From IMG/VR virus record IMGVR_UViG_3300025133_000028: a stretch of DNA of 64,000 bases, one strand, 5' to 3'. Below, one piece after another: positions 48,238 to 64,000 of this stretch. Both the position numbers and the translations under genes were made by a program. This stretch comes from a virus. The stretch's first letter is position 1; each line of letters opens with the position of its first letter. Under the pieces are notes generated by a model. It searched no databases and was not told the origin of the DNA. It saw nothing but the letters and a program-made list of their open reading frames with translations.

Positions 48238-51200
48238 CTAGTATACATCTTTCATCTTTTCGGTAAACCACGCGGGTCCAATGTATCCAGCGTCGTTTTT
48301 GTCTATTTTCAAATTACCATCGTCAGCCCAACCTCCACCCATATCATATCTTCTAGCCTCTGGAGCACGCTGAATACCTCTGGCTATAGAATTAGCTACA
48401 ACCAGTGCAGAATAGCGGTCTTTTCTCATTCTGCCTTTTTTATTGCCTGGAAGCTTAATTTCTGGAGTATCCCACTTATCTCGCCCACTTGGCGTTTCTG
48501 TCATTGTAATAATAGATAACTCATTTTTAAGTTCTTCTATTTCCATCATACAATCTTCTAAAGTATCAAATGTACGATTATGTTGCTTATCTTGTGCTGC
48601 TGATAGTTCTATACTAACAGGGTCAAAGAAAGGAAACAATATCGCCCTATCTTCAAAGTCTTTACGAAGACCATGATTAGCGTCTGATGTCCAGTTGGCG
48701 TTTGCAAACTCTACGGGATAAACACAATGGTTACCAGAATATCCATCGGTAGGTTCTTCTTTTTCTGGATTAATCCAAGGCCAAAGTTGTGTCTCTCCTT
48801 CTTGTATCTTATCCTTATCACTTAAACCTTCAATTACAGCACGTCCACCACCTTGAGCATCGATTCCAATATGGTCAGTAGGAAATCTTTTCATAAGGGT
48901 GCGGATTTTACGACAACAGTACGAATAAAAATCTGCCTCTTGAGTTAAACCTAATTTCATCTTTTCTGTATGGTCTTTCTTATTAGTTGTCCATACATAA
49001 ATAAGTCTTCTATGTTCTGGTCTCATTTCCATAATAATAATAGAAAAATTGTCAACCTGTGAAGCTGGGTCAATTCCGTATACATATCTCATATTATGAT
49101 TACCATGTAATGTAGCATTGAACATAATATCATTTTCGCTATGAAAAGATATACGATTGTCAGGACTTACTACACAAGACTCAACAAGAGAACGTTTAAA
49201 GAATCCATCGCTATCATTTGAGAACGAATTATGAACAGTAGCATTCAATAAAGAATATGAATTATCTACATCTACTTCTAAATTATATAGTAATCCATCA
49301 TATTTAATTAATTCTTTTTCTGTTATTGGTAATAATGTTTTTTCTCCATCATTAAAAATCTTTTGTGGTTGTTTTTTTTCTGGTTCTCTAGATAGAACAC
49401 CATAAAATTCAAACATAAAATCTCTGAAATTTTTACCACTAAGTTTCAAATAATATGCATTTTCTTGTGTGCTCTTCATAAGAGACGATGAAATATTAAA
49501 ATATGACAATACTAATCGTACCTGATTTAATAAAGATTGACTCACAGAACTAGCAGATACCCATTCAGAATTTTTGATACTCCGTATATGTCCATCACCG
49601 TTCCAGTATCCTTCTACAAAACCCCTCATAAAATCTTCATTAGAAAATAAAATGTTGTGTTTTACTAATTTAGTAAATGAATTACCAGGACATATGTATT
49701 TCATAATATCAGCAACTAATCTACTATTAATATTAATAGATATTGTATTTTTTTGCTTAATATATGATTTACCGTGAAAACCAAATACTTTAAATATAGA
49801 GTCTAAAAGTTGCTTCTGATATTGAGTATCTTTATGTTCATCTAAAGCAAATTCTGCTTGTTTTCCATTACTACCAATACTGCCTTCTGCTGCATAATAT
49901 CCAATAATAAGACCAAAATCATAATCAAGAGGAACAATATTAGGTATACTATTTTTAGGAATATTTCTATTTTTTTGCACATAAGAAACTACAGCTTGTG
50001 ATAATCCAAACTTTTCTCCTAATTTGACCTGTGTTAATTTTTCTATATTGTTTCTAACTGCTCTTTGAGTTGTTATATTAAACGTACTCTTACTGCCTCT
50101 AGGATACAACCTCTGTCCGTTATATGTCTCTAAAATATCAGTTAATATTTTTCCTGGTATAAAGTATTTATCTCCATTTAATTCATTAAGATTAACAAGA
50201 TTAGTGTTATCACACATATGAGACATCTCTATAAACTTGTCGTTTTTAATCCAGTAAGGATGGTTTGGCGAAGTCATTACTTCTTTATTATATCCTAGTG
50301 TTTTATATTTTATGATGTTATCATTATACTGTCTAAACATCTTTTTGGATACCGGCATAAATCTACCTTTATGTGTCAAAACTAAGTCTCCAACTTCAAC
50401 ATCTACTATCTTCTTAATACCTTTAGATGTAGTTATTAGGGTATCAGAAGTTTGACATGCTCCATATTCCATGTTGTAGATAGCAGAGTGGTTAGTAGCT
50501 CTAGCACGAGCAATCTGAGCGTCATCCATAAAGCCTTTAGGAACCTTTTCATAAGGTATGCGTATAACAGAATAGTCATGATGATTAACACCAATTACCT
50601 GTTCTTCTTCGCTAAGATGCCCAGCAATTCTTCTCATATCACCACCACTGCTAATAATGTCTTTCCATTTTTTCCAATACTCACAAAAATGATTAAAACT
50701 ATAATATGCAGTACCAGAAATAACAATTTGGTTACCCATAACACTATCTAAACTATCGTCATACTCTACTGGTAGTTCAATCTTAATGTCGTGCTTTTTT
50801 TCTAGTTTTTTAGCTAACTCTTGAGCAGCACGTTTTTGAACGTTTGTTTTAGGGCTAGAACTAACAATAGCAAAACCAGCAATAACTCTTTCAAAAATAT
50901 CACGACTAATAGACGCAAATTCATCAGCAAGAATATCATTAGCACGTTGACCACGAATCTTTTGGCCGTCACCAATCGGCAACGCCGTAGCTACGTTCTC
51001 ACCTATAAAAACACGACACATGTCAGGACTAGTGCGGTCATATGCTCCTAAGTCTTTTAATATAGGAGCATTATTAATTGTGCTCTGCATGTACTCAAAG
51101 ATGACCTTAGACTGACGGAAAGCAGCACCACAAATAACGACCTTACGAGGAGCAGGCATTAATAAGATACGCAACAGCCCATATATACCTAATATCCACG

Positions 51201-51501
51201 ACTTTCCAAGACCACGACTTCCAATTAACATCGGAAATTTTCGATTCCACAACTCTCTAAGTATTAATGACTGCATAGGTAAAAGTTCTACGTTAAATAT
51301 TTCTGAACAAACAAAAGAAAAATATTCTGGTTGTTGCATTAACCATGTAACATATAAATGTGGATTTTCACTAAGCTCAGAAGGTATGTCCAATAGAGGA
51401 TTATATAACTTACTTTCATCTACAGTTATGTTTAACCAAGCGTCACCAAGTACTCTGTGTATATCTTCTTTGTCTTTAATATTAAAACGATTGTTTGCCA
51501 T
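48238..51501 (-). CDS. terL: Terminase large subunit, intein-containing
   Basis: Walker A 'GSRGLGKS', 'IRGQRA', Walker B 'ILADEF', nuclease 'GIDPAS' and 'KDRYSA'. Confidence 0.92.
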   Translation of the reverse strand: MANNRFNIKDKEDIHRVLGDAWLNITVDESKLYNPLLDIPSELSENPHLYVTWLMQQPEYFSFVCSEIFNVELLPMQSLILRELWNRKFPMLIGSRGLGKSWILGIYGLLRILLMPAPRKVVICGAAFRQSKVIFEYMQSTINNAPILKDLGAYDRTSPDMCRVFIGENVATALPIGDGQKIRGQRANDILADEFASISRDIFERVIAGFAIVSSSPKTNVQKRAAQELAKKLEKKHDIKIELPVEYDDSLDSVMGNQIVISGTAYYSFNHFCEYWKKWKDIISSGGDMRRIAGHLSEEEQVIGVNHHDYSVIRIPYEKVPKGFMDDAQIARARATNHSAIYNMEYGACQTSDTLITTSKGIKKIVDVEVGDLVLTHKGRFMPVSKKMFRQYNDNIIKYKTLGYNKEVMTSPNHPYWIKNDKFIEMSHMCDNTNLVNLNELNGDKYFIPGKILTDILETYNGQRLYPRGSKSTFNITTQRAVRNNIEKLTQVKLGEKFGLSQAVVSYVQKNRNIPKNSIPNIVPLDYDFGLIIGYYAAEGSIGSNGKQAEFALDEHKDTQYQKQLLDSIFKVFGFHGKSYIKQKNTISININSRLVADIMKYICPGNSFTKLVKHNILFSNEDFMRGFVEGYWNGDGHIRSIKNSEWVSASSVSQSLLNQVRLVLSYFNISSSLMKSTQENAYYLKLSGKNFRDFMFEFYGVLSREPEKKQPQKIFNDGEKTLLPITEKELIKYDGLLYNLEVDVDNSYSLLNATVHNSFSNDSDGFFKRSLVESCVVSPDNRISFHSENDIMFNATLHGNHNMRYVYGIDPASQVDNFSIIIMEMRPEHRRLIYVWTTNKKDHTEKMKLGLTQEADFYSYCCRKIRTLMKRFPTDHIGIDAQGGGRAVIEGLSDKDKIQEGETQLWPWINPEKEEPTDGYSGNHCVYPVEFANANWTSDANHGLRKDFEDRAILFPFFDPVSIELSAAQDKQHNRTFDTLEDCMMEIEELKNELSIITMTETPSGRDKWDTPEIKLPGNKKGRMRKDRYSALVVANSIARGIQRAPEARRYDMGGGWADDGNLKIDKNDAGYIGPAWFTEKMKDVY
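49228..50457 (-). mobile_element. Intein with LAGLIDADG homing endonuclease (410 aa) in TerL
   Basis: N-junction YGA|CQTSDTLI, 'LVLTHKGR', 'TSPNHPY', LAGLIDADG 'IGYYAAEG' and 'EGYWNGDG', C-junction 'YNLEV...ATVHN|S'. Confidence 0.93.
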
Positions 51502-57240: not shown

Positions 57241-57940
57241 GATTACGTGTATTAGTGATTTACACGGGTTTACTCCGGTAATTCCCGAAACTGACATTCT
57301 ACTTATAGGTGGGGATATAGCCTTACGTAATGGCCGTAAGAACCAACGTCGTGAATGGAGGCGTAAGTATTTACCGTGGCTACGTGAGGTTCCCGCTACT
57401 CATATCGTATTTGTTGGCGGTAACCACGATTGGCTTTTAGCAGACAAGAACTTTAAAGACGCATTAATCCCGCAACTACCAAGTAATGCTTTTTACCTTG
57501 AAGATTCTAGTATATCTCTCCATACTGACAATGGGAGTTTGTTAATATATGGTACTCCATGGCAAACCCCGTATGGTTCGTGGGCATTTATGAAACCAGA
57601 AAAGGAACTTGTAGAAACTTTTAATGAAATTCGTCCAGATGCAGAAATTTTGTTGTGTCACTCTCCTCCTTGGGGTATATTAGACGAAGTACCAGGAAGA
57701 GGACCGCAAGGTTCCGTAGCTTTGGCTAATCGTATTGTGGATTTGCCAAATCTGAAACTATGTGTGTTTGGCCATATTCACGAAGGGTGGGGATGGGTTC
57801 TTAAGCAAGATACAGTATTTGTTAATAGTCCTATACGAGATTGTAGGTATAATATTAACGAAAACATGCATACTGTGGTACTTGAAGGAAAAAATGTAGT
57901 AGATGTACAATTGAATAAAATTGCGGAATTTACTAGTTAA
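57230..57940 (+). CDS. Calcineurin-like metallophosphoesterase
   Basis: 'SDLHG', 'GGDI', 'GGNHD', 'HSPP', 'FGHIHE'. Confidence 0.92.
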   Translation: MTTRITCISDLHGFTPVIPETDILLIGGDIALRNGRKNQRREWRRKYLPWLREVPATHIVFVGGNHDWLLADKNFKDALIPQLPSNAFYLEDSSISLHTDNGSLLIYGTPWQTPYGSWAFMKPEKELVETFNEIRPDAEILLCHSPPWGILDEVPGRGPQGSVALANRIVDLPNLKLCVFGHIHEGWGWVLKQDTVFVNSPIRDCRYNINENMHTVVLEGKNVVDVQLNKIAEFTS

Positions 57941-57949
57941 AGAAGGATT

Positions 57950-58288
57950 ATGATGGGTAAAATTAACAAAATAATACTTGGTGATTGTCAAGAAATTTTA
58001 AAAACATTTGATAAAAACGGTGGCGAACTTATTATGTATAAGTATTTGTATAAACGCAAAGGCAAAATACTGTCTCCGTATTATAATATGACATGGCGGG
58101 TTGGAAAGGTGAATAAATCCGATGTTCATACGAGAGATAGTGTACATGGCACAAAAGTTGAGGAAGGACTCCACGGGTATGTAGTTTGTTCGTTTTATGA
58201 TATATGGCTAAACGGACTATGGGCAGAGCCATATGGTGTGTTGGTAAAGAAAGAAGACTTTGCACAGGAGAAAAAATATGGAAGATAA
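57950..58288 (+). CDS. Hypothetical protein with a methyltransferase-like N-terminal remnant
   Basis: 'INKIILGDCQEILK' N-terminus followed by unrelated sequence. Confidence 0.45.
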   Translation: MMGKINKIILGDCQEILKTFDKNGGELIMYKYLYKRKGKILSPYYNMTWRVGKVNKSDVHTRDSVHGTKVEEGLHGYVVCSFYDIWLNGLWAEPYGVLVKKEDFAQEKKYGR

Positions 58289-58463
58289 AATAGGGATGTA
58301 CTTTTTGTGTCTGACTGTTTTGTTTTGTGTGGGTGGCTCATTTGAGATTCCTGTCTTAACCATTTGTGCTATTTTTGGCTTTACTATATACGGTATGTAT
58401 CATGGTACGTGGTGCTTAATTAATATAGTGATTGACTCGCTTATTAAAGGCAGAGAGTCATAG
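58278..58463 (+). CDS. Small membrane protein
   Basis: RBS AGGAGA before ATG 58278; hydrophobic. Confidence 0.5.
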   Translation: MEDKIGMYFLCLTVLFCVGGSFEIPVLTICAIFGFTIYGMYHGTWCLINIVIDSLIKGRES

Positions 58464-58616
58464 CGACCTACAGTCGAGAACATAAAGGAAAATAATGTAT
58501 AAATTATGATGCTGTTTGCGATTGGTGTGCCTGTGGGAATATATACGATATCGATAATACTCGCACGAACGCACAGAAAAGTCCGATGCTGTCGCACGAC
58601 TTTTACAGAGAAGTCC

Positions 58617-58717
58617 GAGTTTTGAAAATTGGGGGCCGGATTTTTTTTGCGACTTGCAGTCGAGTTTTGGAATTGGTAACACCTGAGTTTTAGAAATCGG
58701 GGGCCGGATTTTTTTTG
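58617..58717 (+). repeat. Direct repeat GAGTTTT..AAAT.GGGGGCCGGATTTTTTTTG (2 copies)
   Basis: Cores at 58631-58649 and 58699-58717. Confidence 0.85.
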
Positions 58718-58840
58718 AAATGGAGGATTTCAGCAACGTATGGTATTTGATAAATATTGGGCGTATTTTTTATGGACCCCGTCAAAAAGATATGCCATAA
58801 ACTCCATAGGCTATATCACAAATAGAATGGGTAGGGTATC

Positions 58841-59698
58841 TTTGGCACGGAATTTGCTACGCAAATAGCATGCCAAATAGCAACTAAATTCTGTCTCAAA
58901 ATGAGACGCTAATTCCCACAATCCGCATAGGGATTCTAGCCTATCGGCGCGGTGCGAATATGCACAATCCCCATAGGGGTTCTATCTTGTGTGCGTATAC
59001 GCACACTCATAACCAGTGAGAATATGCACAATCCCCATGGCAATTCTGGCAGTTGGCGCGTAGCAAATTCCGTGCCAAACTATATGCCACAAACCCTATG
59101 GCAATTGTGATTTAGGCCAAATCGGCCATTTTTGTATCCTCTGTGAGTCTCTGTGCGGCCCGCTAACGAGCGCAACAGGTTAGGGGTATCCTAGGTCAAA
59201 ACGTGTTTTTCCACCCCTATGGGGGGTGTGGTTACCTATCTTACCATACTTGCCTATATTAACAAAAATCTCATTATGAGATTCAGTTTGGCACGATAGT
59301 TGCTTGTGCATATACGCACACTCACAGCACAAAACGCGCACATACGCACCCCCTCTATTGGGGAATTGGAACAAACCCTATGCGGAATATGCGGAATAGG
59401 CATTCGACCACTAGTGTTCATTTGTTCAAATTGTCATTTTGTAAGTGTGCGGCGCGCCGTTTGCTATGCACACTTCAAACGCACACTTCGTTATAACCCT
59501 ATGGTATATATAGACTTAGGGAGTGTCATTTTCGCACACTAGTGTGCATTCCGCAACGTGTTGATACATATAGACTTAGGTCAAATAGGCGTGCATATAC
59601 GCACACTCGGCCCGCTATGTGAGAATGGACCAAATAGCGTAACATGTTGATACATATAGACTTAGGAGAATCCTATTCTGTTTGGCACACGATATGCT
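58841..59698. promoter_or_regulatory. Cluster of six sigma54 (RpoN) -24/-12 elements with enhancer-like palindromes and IHF sites
   Basis: GG-N10-GC boxes: 58843-58858(+) TGGCACGGAATTTGCT, 58860-58875(-) TGGCATGCTATTTGCG, 59062-59077(-) TGGCACGGAATTTGCT, 59289-59304(+) TGGCACGATAGTTGCT, 59450-59465(+) CGGCGCGCCGTTTGCT, 59683-59698(+) TGGCACACGATATGCT. Confidence 0.75.
59554..59652 (-). promoter_or_regulatory. Two consensus IHF sites (WATCAANNNNTTR) inside a direct repeat
   Basis: TATCAACACGTTG (59554-59566, -) and TATCAACATGTTA (59640-59652, -), each overlapping TGTTGATACATATAGACTTAGG. Confidence 0.7.
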
Positions 59699-59708
59699 AC
59701 TTGGTTCT

Positions 59709-59930
59709 AACCGGCGTTGCCCTACGGCGACGAGGGCGGCTAGATACGGGCAGTATCACGCAACACCGCCAATCGCTCCTTGACAATTCGGTAGAACGCT
59801 AGGTGGTGACATCCGTAGAATGGACTGCGGACCTACCATATGCAACGGATTAGACTCTGTGCAGAACGGCCCGTAGGCGTCCTCTGTGGACGCATAGCGG
59901 GCTGTTTAGCGTATGGTCCAGTCCAAACCA
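59709..59930 (+). ncRNA. Structured 5' leader/ncRNA downstream of the last sigma54 box, with boxA-like motif
   Basis: Nested helices 59712-20/59760-68, 59743-47/59753-57, 59821-27/59919-25, 59835-43/59909-17, 59865-73/59898-906, 59877-82/59888-93; CGCTCCTTGACAA at 59774-59786. Confidence 0.6.
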
Positions 59931-59941
59931 AGGAGCATAGC

Positions 59942-60118
59942 ATGGAACCAGTACTAGTAACCCGCGAGCAATACGATTGGTTGGTTCAAAACCATTCTAG
60001 TTGGATGTTACACGATTGGTTAAGATTCAATCGGGAATGGCGCCTGTCGGGAGTAAAGTGTTACGGTTCGTTTTCAATGTTGGTTGAGCTACGATTTAAG
60101 CTTCGCCAGTTTAGTTAA
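59942..60118 (+). CDS. Small putative early protein
   Basis: RBS AAGGAG before ATG 59942; the ORF-track start 59840 lies inside the structured leader. Confidence 0.6.
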   Translation: MEPVLVTREQYDWLVQNHSSWMLHDWLRFNREWRLSGVKCYGSFSMLVELRFKLRQFS

Positions 60119-60203
60119 CCCCAAATTTCCTAAACAGCCTACTTTAACAGAGTAGGTTGATTTGGCAGTTTAGGTAACTTGCACAGTCTACGGAGATTAG
60201 ACA

Positions 60204-60392
60204 ATGCTGGAAAGCTTGCTAAACAGAGTAGTTTGGGACAAATGGGAAGTTTTTGACCCCCAAACTGGTCTACCTATCGTCCGCCTACCCGCCAAACATT
60301 TGGCAGTTTGGGTAGCATGGGCAATGAAGGCAAAATGGACCGTTTGCGGTCAAGGCGTGTTTTTGGCAAAATGGGAAGTTTACACAAGGTGA
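60204..60392 (+). CDS. Small putative early protein
   Basis: Shared leader CTACGGAG..TAG..ATG. Confidence 0.6.
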   Translation: MLESLLNRVVWDKWEVFDPQTGLPIVRLPAKHLAVWVAWAMKAKWTVCGQGVFLAKWEVYTR

Positions 60393-60490
60393 ATTCCCGA
60401 TACCGCTTATCTTGATAAGATAGGCGATTTCGGTAGTTTACGCCATTCTGGCGATTTGAGTAGTTAACACAATTTACGGAGTCTAGTGAA

Positions 60491-60835
60491 ATGACGAAGT
60501 TAGCATCGTTTGCGTCAAGTGCGGACAATTGGGACTATGCACAAGCTGTGAAAACAGCGGAAGCTACGGCTGGCGTTGAAATGACCGATTTAGACTGGTT
60601 TCGCGCGTTCAACGTGGCAGTACCAACGGAGGCGGGTACGCGAGACCTATGGACGCTTAAAAACACAAACAAGCGCAACACCGCCAATTCCGCACAATGC
60701 CCGAAGAAGGAGCGACAACGCCACCACGAAGACCATTATGGTAAAATGGGTATTGTGGGCAAACCAGGAAGCAAGGAGAGAATAGAGGCATTGCGGCAAG
60801 CTGTGGAAGCTGGAGAGTTTGGGCAAGATGAGTAA
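60491..60835 (+). CDS. Putative early protein
   Basis: Shared leader TACGGAGTCTAGTGAAATG. Confidence 0.7.
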   Translation: MTKLASFASSADNWDYAQAVKTAEATAGVEMTDLDWFRAFNVAVPTEAGTRDLWTLKNTNKRNTANSAQCPKKERQRHHEDHYGKMGIVGKPGSKERIEALRQAVEAGEFGQDE

Positions 60836-62878: not shown

Positions 62879-62936
62879 CTGACAGCCTAGCGGGTAATCC
62901 TGACAGCCTAGCGGGTAATCCTGACAGCCTAGCGGG
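62879..62936 (+). repeat. 21-bp tandem repeat CTGACAGCCTAGCGGGTAATC x2.8
   Basis: Units start at 62879, 62900 and 62921. Confidence 0.9.
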
Positions 62937-63222
62937 CTAGGGTAATACTTCAAGGAAAAAATATAATATCGGGATTTATCGGCACTTTATATTTGACAAC
63001 CGGAAATTCTATGGTAGGTAATCCTCTTATGGTAGTCTGGGCAATATGCACAATATAAGTATTTGACGAAGTATAGGTAAGTAATCCCGCCTTTTGACGA
63101 AGTCAAGGGTAATCCGTGAATAAATTGCCAAGTAATAATATATTTTTCCTTGAAGATAATCCGTTGCAATGCCGATAATGTATGGTAAGCTAGGGCATAC
63201 AACAAAACAAAAGGAGAGTACG

Positions 63223-63393
63223 ATGGAATTCAGAGTTATCAAAACGTGGGCATTTGGCCAAATTTTGGATTTTGTTGGCACTTTTGCTGAGTGTCAGGCG
63301 TATTGTCGTGGGTATTGTGGTTCAATGTATACGTATAGCTTATCCATTGTGGATAATAGCGGCACAGTTTGTGATGTTTGGCAAGATAGGTAA
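63223..63393 (+). CDS. Small putative early protein
   Basis: RBS AAGGAG before ATG 63223. Confidence 0.6.
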   Translation: MEFRVIKTWAFGQILDFVGTFAECQAYCRGYCGSMYTYSLSIVDNSGTVCDVWQDR

Positions 63394-63550
63394 TCTAAGC
63401 AAGGAGCTAGGCTATGGTCATTTTGCGGGAGTGGATAATCGAGAGACGGCAGATAACCACAACAAAGGAAGAAATTACGGAATTTTACCTTGACGTGGAT
63501 ATCGACGTGATTTTGGAAATGTGGGCGATTTTGGGAATCTAGGGTGAATT

Positions 63551-63763
63551 ATGAAAAATCAAGCCAATTTGACGATTTTAGACGTAGACAATGCTTTCCG
63601 CCTACTAGAGGAGCGAATTGCAAAACCAACTACTCGCGAAGAAATCTATAAAATCCGCGAAGAATTGGATTTTTGGTACGATACGTGCTATACGGAGTCT
63701 GGTTCAATTGCCACAAAGACTATGGATGATACGCAATTTGATTTGGCTTACGAAAAAGAATAG
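63551..63763 (+). CDS. Small putative early protein
   Basis: 70-aa ORF, same orientation and spacing as its neighbours. Confidence 0.55.
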   Translation: MKNQANLTILDVDNAFRLLEERIAKPTTREEIYKIREELDFWYDTCYTESGSIATKTMDDTQFDLAYEKE

Positions 63764-63840
63764 GTAAGATAGGCAAGCTGGGTAATATATCGGCAAATTT
63801 ATTTGCAGGCTAAAATTGGGAAATAATCTCAAGTTTAGCC

Positions 63841-63913
63841 TTGCAATAGCCGAAAACTAGGATATAATAAGAATATAGCCGTGGGGGAGGCTGCGCGGAT
63901 TTATTTGGCTGTG
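63841..63913 (+). promoter_or_regulatory. Sigma70-like promoter plus conserved 40-nt element (copy 2)
   Basis: TTGCAA-N16-TATAAT, then TATAGCCGTGGGGGAGGCTGCGCGGATTTATTTGGCTGTG. Confidence 0.6.
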
Positions 63914-64000
63914 ACAGCCGCCATACCACAGCGAGAAAAACACGAAGCTACTATAATAAGAATAACATAGATTTAGAAGAAGTCAAGCACTATTATCGGA

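What the first reader, a model, noticed from the sequence alone, without database searches (positions are those of the whole stretch)
58893..59652. Two families of enhancer-like palindromes plus consensus IHF sites give a complete sigma54 enhancer architecture
Seen, family 1 (GTGC-N6-GCAC): perfect 18-bp palindrome GTGTGCGTATACGCACAC at 58989-59006, with variants at 58952, 59016, 59305 and 59591. Two copies fit TGT-N10-ACA. Seen, family 2 (TCTCA-N3-TGAGA): 58893-58907 and 59267-59283, the latter abutting sigma54 box 4. Two exact WATCAANNNNTTR sites lie at 59554 and 59640, the second about 30 bp upstream of the last -24 element. A related AA(T/A)CCC(C/T)ATRG motif recurs roughly eight times. 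Established: UAS, then IHF site, then -24/-12 is the textbook layout of bEBP-activated promoters, and TGT-N10-ACA is the NifA-type UAS. Inference: the phage offers landing pads for more than one host activator, acting as a multi-input enhancer. No bEBP is encoded in this window.
Basis: partly seen in the sequence, partly recalled or inferred. Interest (0 to 1): 0.78.

Follow-up and report, generated by a model that had tools for sequence, protein, structure and literature searches.

The report
Phage sigma-54 control region with repeats
A 1-kb gene-free stretch at the start of the early genes of an uncultured marine phage holds four promoter cores of the type read by bacterial sigma-54, plus several short repeats found nowhere else in the genome, but only the last promoter has the textbook activator-site/bend-site/promoter layout, and that module is missing from the phage's closest relative.

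Summary
Exact copies occur nowhere else in the 163.6-kb phage genome.

The "complete sigma54 enhancer" reading holds for one of four promoters. P4 (start about 59709) has a GTGC-N6-GCAC dyad at -112 and an IHF-consensus match at -63. The other strong dyads lie at or downstream of start sites: -3 of P3, and +128 of P1 / +53 of P2. TCTCA-N3-TGAGA lies at -40 and +31, so it is not an enhancer site.

The 327-bp block holding the P4 module is replaced in the only other allele, seen in five contigs. That allele has no sigma54 box, dyad or exact IHF match there.

The IHF matches sit in a 29-bp repeat. Its invariant part across four lineages is TAAGTCT, not the IHF core. This repeat next to a sigma54-type box recurs at the early-arm head of two distant relatives, so that pair looks ancestral.

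The dyad was not found as an upstream site of sigma54 promoters in 185,579 species genomes. The phage encodes no sigma54, activator, IHF/HU or recombinase.

Most likely this is a host-sigma54-dependent, fast-evolving control region with borrowed activator sites (about 0.42). Operator, origin or packaging roles remain open. This scan has noted similar cassettes in other uncultured phages, and phage YuA is the published precedent.

The parts
58843..58858 (+). P1, sigma54-type -24/-12 core TGGCACGGAATTTGCT. Estimated start about 58869.
   Evidence: Exact match to the consensus. In the sister allele only one spacer base differs.
58860..58875 (-). P1', a weak face-to-face box TGGCATGCTATTTGCG overlapping P1. 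Probably not a promoter.
   Evidence: Score 20 of 22.5. The sister allele improves the -24 half but loses the -12 GC. Similar face-to-face double boxes occur in L143.
58894..58906 (.). Family 2 palindrome TCTCAAAATGAGA, at +31 of P1.
   Evidence: It lies in a 99-nt stretch with no substitutions between the two alleles.
58906..59057 (+). Three tandem 32-42-nt units (starts 58906, 58952, 59016), each ending in CACAATCCSCATRG. The GTGC-N6-GCAC 'variants' at 58952 and 59016 are part of these units.
   Evidence: the repeat finder families D3, D4 and D7.
58989..59006 (.). Family 1 dyad F1a, the perfect 18-bp palindrome GTGTGCGTATACGCACAC. It lies at +128 of P1 and +53 of P2.
   Evidence: Identical in the sister allele.
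59062..59077 (-). P2, a sigma54-type core. It forms a perfect 22-nt inverted repeat with P1 and is convergent with it. Estimated start about 59051.
   Evidence: inverted repeat I2. Identical in the sister allele.
59211..59231 (.). CCACCCCTATGGGGGGTGTGG palindrome at about -95 of P3.
   Evidence: I6. Four substitutions in the sister allele.
59223..59284 (.). A 62-nt island with no substitutions, lying inside a zone that differs by 11% between alleles. It contains the family 2 palindrome TCTCATTATGAGA (59269-59281), at -40 of P3.
59289..59304 (+). P3, sigma54-type core TGGCACGATAGTTGCT. Estimated start about 59315.
   Evidence: The sister allele reads TGGTACGATAGTTGCG, keeping the GG and the GC.
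59305..59351 (+). Family 1 dyads F1b (59305-59321, across the P3 start) and F1b' (59336-59349, degenerate here).
   Evidence: In the sister allele F1b is broken (TGAGC) while F1b' becomes a perfect GTGCATATACGCAC through two substitutions toward the consensus.
59403..59422 (.). First copy of the TTCGNCCACTAGTGTNCATT repeat (a CACTAGTG palindrome), degenerate.
   Evidence: the repeat finder D13. Both genome-region copies of CACTAGTG are here, out of 3 in the genome.
59472..59797 (.). Allele-specific block holding the second CACTAGTG palindrome, three D5 repeats, dyad F1c, both IHF matches and P4. The sister allele has a 391-bp block here that does not align.
   Evidence: Alignments A1, A2 and A3. 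Motif scan of the sister block.
59531..59550 (.). Second CACTAGTG copy, GCACACTAGTGTGC (GCAC-N6-GTGC, the opposite polarity to family 1), at about -170 of P4.
   Evidence: D13, I19.
59492..59666 (+). D5 repeat, three copies (59492-59520 degenerate, 59552-59580, 59638-59666). The motif is CGYAACRTGTTGATACATATAGACTTAGG.
   Evidence: the repeat finder D5. Homologous units occur in the sister allele (inverted), G022 and L171, with TAAGTCT invariant.
59554..59566 (-). IHF-consensus match TATCAACACGTTG, inside D5 copy 2.
59590..59606 (+). Family 1 dyad F1c, CGTGCATATACGCACAC, centred at -112 of P4. This is the only copy at a canonical upstream-site position.
59640..59652 (-). IHF-consensus match TATCAACATGTTA, inside D5 copy 3, centred at -63 of P4.
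59683..59698 (+). P4, sigma54-type core TGGCACACGATATGCT. Estimated start about 59709, leading into the G+C-rich leader and the first early ORF (ATG at 59942).
   Evidence: Absent from the sister allele.

Best explanation
This is the gene-free control region at the head of the rightward early-gene arm of a virulent, uncultured marine phage.

Proposed mechanism:
- Host RNA polymerase carrying sigma54 binds the four -24/-12 cores. Because sigma54 promoters cannot open without an AAA+ activator and the phage encodes none, a host activator must be borrowed.
- P4 is a canonical module. An activator dimer would bind the GTGC-N6-GCAC dyad at -112. The D5 element at -63 would be bent by IHF or by another protein that reads its invariant TAAGTCT. 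The core then fires into the structured leader and the first early genes.
- The D5 element beside a sigma54 core is the ancestral unit of this phage clade.
- The remaining dyads are sites for the same dimeric regulator at non-canonical places. One cluster of three lies between the convergent P1/P2 pair, and one or two lie on the P3 start. They would act as remote or shared enhancers, or as operators.
- Family 2 is a promoter-proximal site, not an enhancer.
- The region turns over quickly. Whole modules are swapped between alleles that are otherwise identical.

Shown: the motifs, their uniqueness in the genome, their positions, the allele replacement, and the D5-plus-box conservation.

Inferred: sigma54 use, activator binding, IHF binding, and every transcription start site.
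For: Sigma54 cores:
- Three exact cores and one near-exact core lie within 860 bp. They are the only exact ones in 163.6 kb.

Motif families:
- All occur only in this region.
- They are short motifs with unrelated flanks, not long duplications.

P4 module:
- Dyad at -112, IHF-consensus match at -63, then the core.

Dyad turnover at P3:
- In the sister allele one copy is lost and the copy 30 bp away becomes perfect through two consensus-directed changes.

Relatives:
- D5 plus a sigma54-type box sits at the early-arm head of G022 and L171.
- G002 has two boxes at the syntenic place. Repeated dyads lie at -180 to -145 and an A+T-rich spacer lies before the gene-proximal box.
- Unrelated phage-like contigs also show sigma54-box arrays amid repeats.

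Nothing phage-encoded to do the job:
- No sigma54, bEBP or HU/IHF gene in the phage.

Published precedent:
- Phage YuA depends on host sigma54 (PMC5053324; bioRxiv 10.1101/2023.10.13.562163).
Against: - Only one of four promoters has an upstream dyad at enhancer distance. P1 has none upstream.
- P1 and P2 are convergent, and the dyad cluster lies downstream of both.
- F1b covers the P3 start, which is an operator-like position.
- The P4 module is missing from the commoner allele.
- Substitutions between the two alleles are not depleted in the motifs: 27 observed, 25 expected.
- The dyad was not found upstream of sigma54 cores in 185,579 species genomes: 1 hit, chance level. In IMG/VR it occurs only as chance-level singletons, none near a sigma54 box.
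- The WATCAA core of D5 is not conserved, whereas TAAGTCT is.
- In L171 the box has lost its -12 GC.
- The host is unknown, so sigma54, IHF and a matching activator cannot be confirmed.
Confidence: 0.42

Rival explanations
1. Operator reading. The palindromes (family 1, family 2, the CCCYATRGG type and CACTAGTG) are sites for ordinary dimeric regulators, phage-encoded early proteins or host factors such as a CRP-family protein. These would repress or time the promoters rather than activate them as sigma54 enhancers.
For: - F1b lies across the P3 start, and F1b' lies at +27. Family 2 lies at -40 of P3 and +31 of P1.
- The geometry TGTGC-N6-GCACA is that of CRP-type sites (TGTGA-N6-TCACA; general knowledge).
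- The family 2 copies lie in the two stretches with no substitutions between alleles.
- The only literature text match to TGTGC-N6-GCACA is a LysR-type site, not a bEBP site.
Against: - Sigma54 promoters are silent without an activator, so a repressor adds little.
- No regulator gene was identified next to the region. The flanking ORFs have no family match.
- F1c at -112 of P4 is not an operator position.
Confidence: 0.25
2. DNA-transaction reading. The block is a replication origin, packaging site or genome-end / injection-control region at the border of the early arm. The D5 and 32-42-nt repeats would be iteron-like protein sites, the IHF site an architectural element, and the promoters would serve in transcriptional activation.
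For: - Several direct-repeat families, palindromes and IHF-type matches lie in 1.3 kb of non-coding DNA between gene modules.
- D5 acts in either orientation across alleles.
- In G022 and L171, D5 sits exactly at the junction before the first early promoters.
- From memory only: phage P1 pac, lambda cos and the T5 injection-stop region combine repeats with IHF sites.
Against: - The region is richer in G+C (43-49%) than the genome (36.6%) and has no A+T-rich unwinding element.
- Repeat spacings are irregular (46/64 and 60/86 bp).
- Terminase lies 8-10 kb away and the replication genes are elsewhere.
- Six independent assemblies read through the region without a break.
- Such an essential site would not be expected to be replaced between near-identical strains.
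Confidence: 0.15
3. Decoy, roadblock or relic reading. The boxes hold sigma54 holoenzyme in closed complexes without productive transcription, acting as an insulator at the arm boundary or as a sink for host sigma54. Alternatively the block is a decaying, largely neutral repeat region.
For: - P1 and P2 are convergent, and P1/P1' are face to face. These are odd arrangements for productive promoters.
- The boxes decay piecemeal in relatives. The sister allele has lost the -24 half at the P4 place, and L171 has lost the -12 half.
- There is no excess conservation of the motifs between alleles.
Against: - P4 sits correctly in front of a conserved leader and gene.
- In contig L144, nine such boxes each lie 40-50 nt before an ORF, which is how real promoters are placed.
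- The 62- and 99-nt stretches without substitutions argue for constraint.
Confidence: 0.12
4. RNA reading. The palindromes are hairpins of small RNAs transcribed from P1 and P3.
For: - 58870-59135 folds better than its shuffles, z = -4.4.
- One compensatory pair, 59322 T>C with 59444 A>G, preserves a 12-bp stem that joins the predicted P3 5' end to 59440-59451.
Against: - Substitutions between alleles break predicted pairs far more often than they keep them: 21 broken, 8 kept on the + strand.
- The P3 segment is not unusually stable, z = -0.7.
- No Rfam family matches in the window.
- The estimated P3 start cuts dyad F1b in half.
Confidence: 0.06

Closest known systems
Enhancer-dependent bacterial sigma54 promoters with an IHF bend (for example glnHp2, nifH, Pu; glmY/glmZ with GlrR) - general knowledge
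   Same: A GG-N10-GC core that matches TGGCAC-N5-TTGCW. At P4, a 14-16-bp dyad lies at about -110 and a WATCAANNNNTTR match at about -60.
   Different: - This is in a phage that has no activator, sigma54 or IHF gene.
- Only one of four cores has this layout.
- The other dyads lie on or downstream of start sites, and two cores are convergent.
- The dyad sequence matches no regulon that I could find.
- The module is allele-specific.
Pseudomonas aeruginosa phage YuA, whose development depends on host sigma54 (Ceyssens et al. 2008, as cited in PMC5053324; a sigma54-like promoter, P015, was seen by ONT-cappable-seq in bioRxiv 10.1101/2023.10.13.562163)
   Same: A virulent phage that uses host sigma54-type promoters alongside sigma70-type ones, without encoding sigma54.
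   Different: - There is no sequence relationship. The portal protein's only hits among cultured phages are at about 19% identity, to Clostridium phage Amboise and Bacillus phage G.
- Here the boxes are clustered in one control region with several repeat families.
- Nothing here is experimentally supported.
- The original YuA paper could not be read.
NifA-type upstream activating sequence TGT-N10-ACA (general knowledge)
   Same: Two dyad copies (58990, 59305) fit TGT-N10-ACA.
   Different: Those two copies are not at upstream-site positions (+128/+53 and -3). The copy that is at -112 reads CGT-N10-ACA. The pattern is loose: 66 matches in this genome.
Sigma54-box arrays in other uncultured phage contigs
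   Same: Several consensus sigma54 boxes in non-coding or intergenic DNA, sometimes inverted or face to face, often set among short phased repeats.
   Different: The accompanying repeats differ in every case: GTAGTAC in L004, AAAATATCTYA in L143 and L146, and none in L144. No common enhancer motif exists. These contigs are unrelated to this phage.

Membership tests
bEBP-dependent sigma54 promoter with UAS and IHF site | A -24 GG and -12 GC core, 10 bp apart, matching TGGCAC-N5-TTGCW | tested here: met
   P1, P2 and P3 match exactly. P4 has ATGCT. These are the only exact matches in the genome.
bEBP-dependent sigma54 promoter with UAS and IHF site | Activator dyad(s) about 80-150 bp upstream of the start (P4) | tested here: met
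   Dyad F1c is centred at -112 of the estimated P4 start, and GCACACTAGTGTGC lies at about -170. The start site is estimated, not mapped.
bEBP-dependent sigma54 promoter with UAS and IHF site | Activator dyad(s) about 80-150 bp upstream of the start (P1, P2, P3) | tested here: not met
   - P1: no repeat-family dyad upstream.
- P2: the nearest family 1 copy upstream is at -262.
- P3: family 1 lies at -3 and +27, and family 2 at -40. Only an unrelated CCCCTATGGGG palindrome lies at -95.
bEBP-dependent sigma54 promoter with UAS and IHF site | An IHF site between the UAS and the core | tested here: inconclusive
   - There is an exact consensus match at -63 of P4. G022 and L171 carry exact IHF-consensus matches in their D5 elements; G022's lies at about -80.
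- The WATCAA core reads TGGCAA in the sister allele and TACCAT in copy 1, whereas TAAGTCT is invariant.
- The consensus is not enriched in the window.
bEBP-dependent sigma54 promoter with UAS and IHF site | A cognate AAA+ activator and sigma54 are available | not testable with these tools
   The phage has no PF00158, PF04552 or PF00216 match. The host is unknown. The dyad-plus-core pattern gave 1 chance-level hit in 185,579 species genomes.
bEBP-dependent sigma54 promoter with UAS and IHF site | rpoN- and activator-dependent transcription starting about 12 nt after the -12 C | not testable with these tools
   No transcript data are available.
NifA-type UAS | TGT-N10-ACA located 80-150 bp upstream of a sigma54 core | tested here: not met
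   The two copies that fit lie at +128/+53 and at -3. The copy at -112 has CGT.
Iteron-type replication origin | Regularly phased direct repeats beside an A+T-rich unwinding element and an initiator gene | tested here: not met
   - Repeat spacings are 46/64 and 60/86 bp.
- The region has 43-49% G+C against 36.6% for the genome.
- The flanking genes are a methyltransferase, a phosphoesterase and small unknown ORFs.
Invertible DNA segment (Hin/Gin type) | Inverted repeats flanking the segment, plus a site-specific recombinase | tested here: not met
   A perfect 22-nt inverted repeat (P1/P2) flanks 195 bp. However, the genome has no resolvase or integrase domain, and both alleles have the same orientation there.

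The most novel reading that the evidence does not exclude
A virulent marine phage gates the first genes of its early arm through a host signalling protein (a sigma54 activator). It does so with exchangeable enhancer cassettes: closely related strains carry different or no activator sites, so they respond to different host states. A convergent pair of sigma54 promoters sharing a three-dyad cluster would act as a bidirectional switch, and the conserved TAAGTCT element would be a new architectural-protein site that partners sigma54 promoters across this phage clade.
Probability: 0.15. Interest if true: 0.7.

Novelty: new variant of a known kind. Interest (0 to 1): 0.45.

Why it matters
If these promoters are real, the phage makes part of its early programme depend on a host activator, and so on the physiological state of the cell. 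Phage YuA is the only phage known to rely on sigma54. Sigma54-type boxes were also found here in other phage contigs, and this scan's earlier notes report similar cassettes in further uncultured phages, so this may be a common strategy that has been overlooked.

The two natural alleles, one with the canonical module and one without, are a ready-made comparison for testing it.

The negative results also matter. Most palindromes are not placed as enhancers, the IHF core is not the conserved part of its repeat, and the dyad matches no regulon found in the search of 185,579 species genomes. The textbook label should therefore not be applied to the whole block.

Tried and rejected
1. Phage DNA search with the region: no match.
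2. Rfam and tRNA scans of the window: nothing.
3. Relatives of the flanking small proteins P0002 and P0003 in IMG/VR: none.
4. Family 1 16-mer in IMG/VR: 36 single hits, about chance. None is near a sigma54 box or is homologous to this region.
5. Dyad plus sigma54 core in 185,579 species genomes: 1 hit, in Bordetella tumbae, which is chance level.
6. D5 21-mer in metagenome contigs: no hit.
7. D5 plus box in the window's orientation, in IMG/VR: only chance hits inside coding sequence.
8. Conserved RNA structure: rejected. Substitutions between alleles break 21 predicted pairs and keep 8.
9. Purifying selection on the motifs between the two alleles: not detectable, 27 against 25 expected. The pattern is a recombination mosaic. 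The alleles are identical left of about 58800, differ by 7.7% up to 59471, do not align up to 59797, and are 85% identical beyond.
10. Invertible-segment and temperate-switch readings: no recombinase in the genome.
11. Phage-encoded activator in this or five other box-bearing contigs: none.
12. D5 as a sigma70 promoter: there is no consistent -10 element in the three window copies (by eye).
13. The two other sigma54-like hits in the genome, at 2721 and 38316: they lie inside or antisense to ORFs and are taken as chance.
14. Literature text search for the dyad: one LysR-type site only.
15. Ceyssens et al. 2008 could not be read.
16. Host identification: no tool route was left.
Full report
SETTING

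The window is the last 62.9 kb of a 163,651-bp IMG/VR virus record with 36.6% G+C. It carries portal, terminase and tail genes on the minus strand. Its only protein-level matches among cultured phages are at about 19% identity.

The stretch 58.6-59.94 kb has no plausible ORF. It follows a short rightward module (methyltransferase, phosphoesterase) and a set of T-run repeats. It precedes an array of small rightward ORFs with 45-50% G+C. Earlier notes of this scan place more than 20 sigma70-type early promoters further along the same arm, so this is the head of the early arm.

OBSERVATION

- GTGC-N6-GCAC occurs exactly at 58952, 58991, 59306 and 59591. That is 4 copies against 0.36 expected. One-mismatch copies lie at 59016 and 59336.
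- TCTCA-N3-TGAGA occurs at 58894 and 59269, against 0.08 expected.
- WATCAANNNNTTR occurs on the minus strand at 59554 and 59640.
- The AAWCCSYATRG motif gives 10 hits, against 0.3 expected from genome density.

None of the exact copies occurs anywhere else in the genome. The copies are short motifs with unrelated flanks, not parts of long duplications. That is the signature of discrete sites.

Three refinements:
- The 58952 and 59016 'variants' are part of a 32-42-nt tandem unit.
- The true dyads share a one-sided flank (GCRTATACGCACACTCR), all on the + strand. Five of the genome's seven CGCACAC heptamers lie here on the + strand.
- Both IHF matches are copies of one 29-bp repeat, D5. The IHF consensus is not enriched in the window as a whole (5 found, 7.8 expected).

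SIGMA54 CORES

Four strong cores lie here: P1 at 58843 (+), P2 at 59062 (-), P3 at 59289 (+) and P4 at 59683 (+). Two weak ones lie at 58860 (-) and 59450 (+). These six are among only 14 sites in the genome at that score, and the three exact matches are the only exact ones in the genome.

P1 and P2 form a perfect 22-nt inverted repeat and are convergent. Counting 12 nt from the -12 C gives estimated starts at 58869, 59051 (-), 59315 and 59709.

GEOMETRY

- Only P4 fits the textbook order: dyad F1c at -112, IHF match at -63, then the core.
- F1a lies at +128 of P1 and +53 of P2.
- F1b lies across the P3 start at -3. F1b' lies at +27.
- Family 2 lies at -40 of P3 and +31 of P1.
- P1 has no repeat-family dyad upstream.
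- The two copies that fit TGT-N10-ACA are not the copy at an upstream-site position.

COMPARISON WITH RELATIVES

The phosphoesterase gene led to three contigs and a sigma54-box pattern to two more. All five carry one identical sister allele. The two alleles compare as follows:
- Left of about 58800 they are identical.
- From 58819 to 59471 there are 52 substitutions.
- The window block 59472-59797 is replaced in the sister allele by a 391-bp block that does not align.
- Beyond that, identity is 85%.

The window block holds the second CACTAGTG palindrome, all three D5 copies, F1c, both IHF matches and P4. The sister block has no sigma54 box, no dyad and no exact IHF match. It does have two D5-like units in inverted orientation.

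Other differences in the sister allele:
- P1 differs at one spacer base, and P2 is identical.
- P3 reads TGGTAC...TTGCG.
- F1b is broken, but F1b', 30 bp away, becomes perfect through two consensus-directed changes. This suggests a need for one dyad at that place.

Substitutions are not depleted in the motifs (27 against 25 expected). However, two stretches of 99 and 62 nt have no substitutions at all, and each contains a family 2 copy.

The portal protein finds 366 IMG/VR relatives at about 45% identity. Among the near-complete relatives, G002 has two sigma54 boxes at the syntenic place. Repeated dyads lie at -180 to -145 of the gene-proximal box, followed by an A+T-rich spacer. G001 and G003 have no boxes.

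G022 has one box just before its first sigma70 early promoter. Its neighbour is a D5-like element. The pattern TAAGTCT-N5-T-NN-CAAC was found in 1.1 Mb of clade sequence only in the window and in G022. A composite scan of IMG/VR added L171, a 237-kb contig. In L171, D5 is followed by TTTGGCACGGAATT, but the -12 GC is lost.

An alignment of seven D5 copies from four lineages shows TAAGTCT invariant. The WATCAA core varies: TATCAA in four copies, TGGCAA in two and TACCAT in one. So D5 beside a sigma54-type box is the conserved pair. Whether IHF is what reads D5 remains open.

TESTS OF THE ENHANCER IDEA

- The phage has no sigma54 activator, sigma54 DNA-binding domain or HU/IHF domain. Five other box-bearing contigs also lack an activator.
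- The dyad with a TATA centre, placed 56-86 bp upstream of TGGCAC-N5-TTGC, gave one hit in 185,579 species genomes. About two are expected by chance.
- The 16-mer dyad gives only chance-level single hits in IMG/VR.
- The open literature holds no bEBP site of this form.

RIVAL READINGS

- RNA hairpins: 58870-59135 is unusually stable (z = -4.4) and there is one compensatory pair (59322/59444). Overall, however, substitutions break 21 predicted pairs and keep 8.
- Invertible segment: there is no recombinase.
- Origin: there is no A+T-rich element, the repeat spacing is irregular, and no initiator gene lies nearby.
- Packaging site or genome end: cannot be excluded without reads. Six assemblies do read through the region.

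CONTEXT

Sigma54-type boxes recur in unrelated phage-like contigs:
- L004 has three boxes, one inverted, amid 10-bp-phased GTAGTAC repeats.
- L005 has two tandem boxes.
- L143 and L146 have seven boxes each, with phased AAAATATCTYA arrays and face-to-face double boxes.
- L144 has nine boxes, each 40-50 nt before a small ORF, with no room for an upstream site.

Earlier notes of this scan describe similar cassettes in several other uncultured phages. The published precedent is phage YuA, which depends on host sigma54.

VERDICT

The block is most likely a host-sigma54-dependent control region that turns over quickly. One module (P4) is canonical, but it is allele-specific and apparently dispensable. 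The D5-plus-box pair is conserved across the clade. The dyads are real sites for one regulator whose identity, activator or repressor, is unknown.

'Two enhancer families' and 'several host activators' are not shown. Family 2 is not placed as an enhancer. The IHF label rests on consensus matches whose core is not the conserved part of the repeat.

Noticed in passing
L144 (metagenome contig Ga0310691_10028100), 869-5218: Nine sigma54-type boxes, all on one strand, each lie 40-50 nt upstream of the ATG of a small ORF. Coding sequence or a terminator hairpin runs right up to each box. This amounts to one sigma54-type promoter per gene with no room for a common enhancer. The extended consensus is TGGCAC-N5-TTGCAATAtAGTAaGTgTAACC. 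The ORFs hit only PHROG families of unknown function.
   Followed up: partly
L143 and L146 (metagenome contigs, 32-34% G+C): Each has seven sigma54-type boxes in both orientations. They are flanked by 10-bp-phased AAAATATCTYA arrays and include face-to-face overlapping double boxes like P1/P1' in the window.
   Followed up: no
L004 3400-3720 and L005 3790-3855 (unrelated IMG/VR contigs): L004 has three sigma54 boxes, one inverted, embedded in GTAGTAC/TACGTAGTA repeats spaced at multiples of 10 bp. L005 has two tandem boxes 46 bp apart in front of a phage gene. Neither contig encodes an activator.
   Followed up: partly
window 59315-59326 with 59440-59451: A 12-bp long-range complementarity begins exactly at the predicted P3 start. 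It carries a compensatory double change in the sister allele (59322 T>C, 59444 A>G). It is the only such pair in the region and could be chance.
   Followed up: partly
window 57900-60600 versus L102: The two alleles form a sharp recombination mosaic. From left to right they are identical, then differ by 7.7%, then do not align (with the D5 units inverted), then are 85% identical. The head of the early arm is a hotspot for allele exchange.
   Followed up: partly
window 62916-64000: The last 1,085 bases of the window are not in the genome record, which ends inside a GGGTAATCCTGACAGCCTAGC tandem repeat. Window 63815-63934 is 88% identical to record positions 16-135, so the early-promoter units are repeated across the record's ends.
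   Followed up: partly
window 48238-51501 (-): The 1087-aa large terminase carries a LAGLIDADG-type insertion (PF14528 on the identical protein in L101). This looks like an intein or homing endonuclease.
   Followed up: no
L171 3077-3200 (IMG/VR contig of 237,915 bp): The first 14 nt of the window's P1/P2 box (TTTGGCACGGAATT) are kept 30 nt after a D5 element, but the -12 GC is gone. A sigma70-type early promoter with a GCCGATAA box follows directly.
   Followed up: partly
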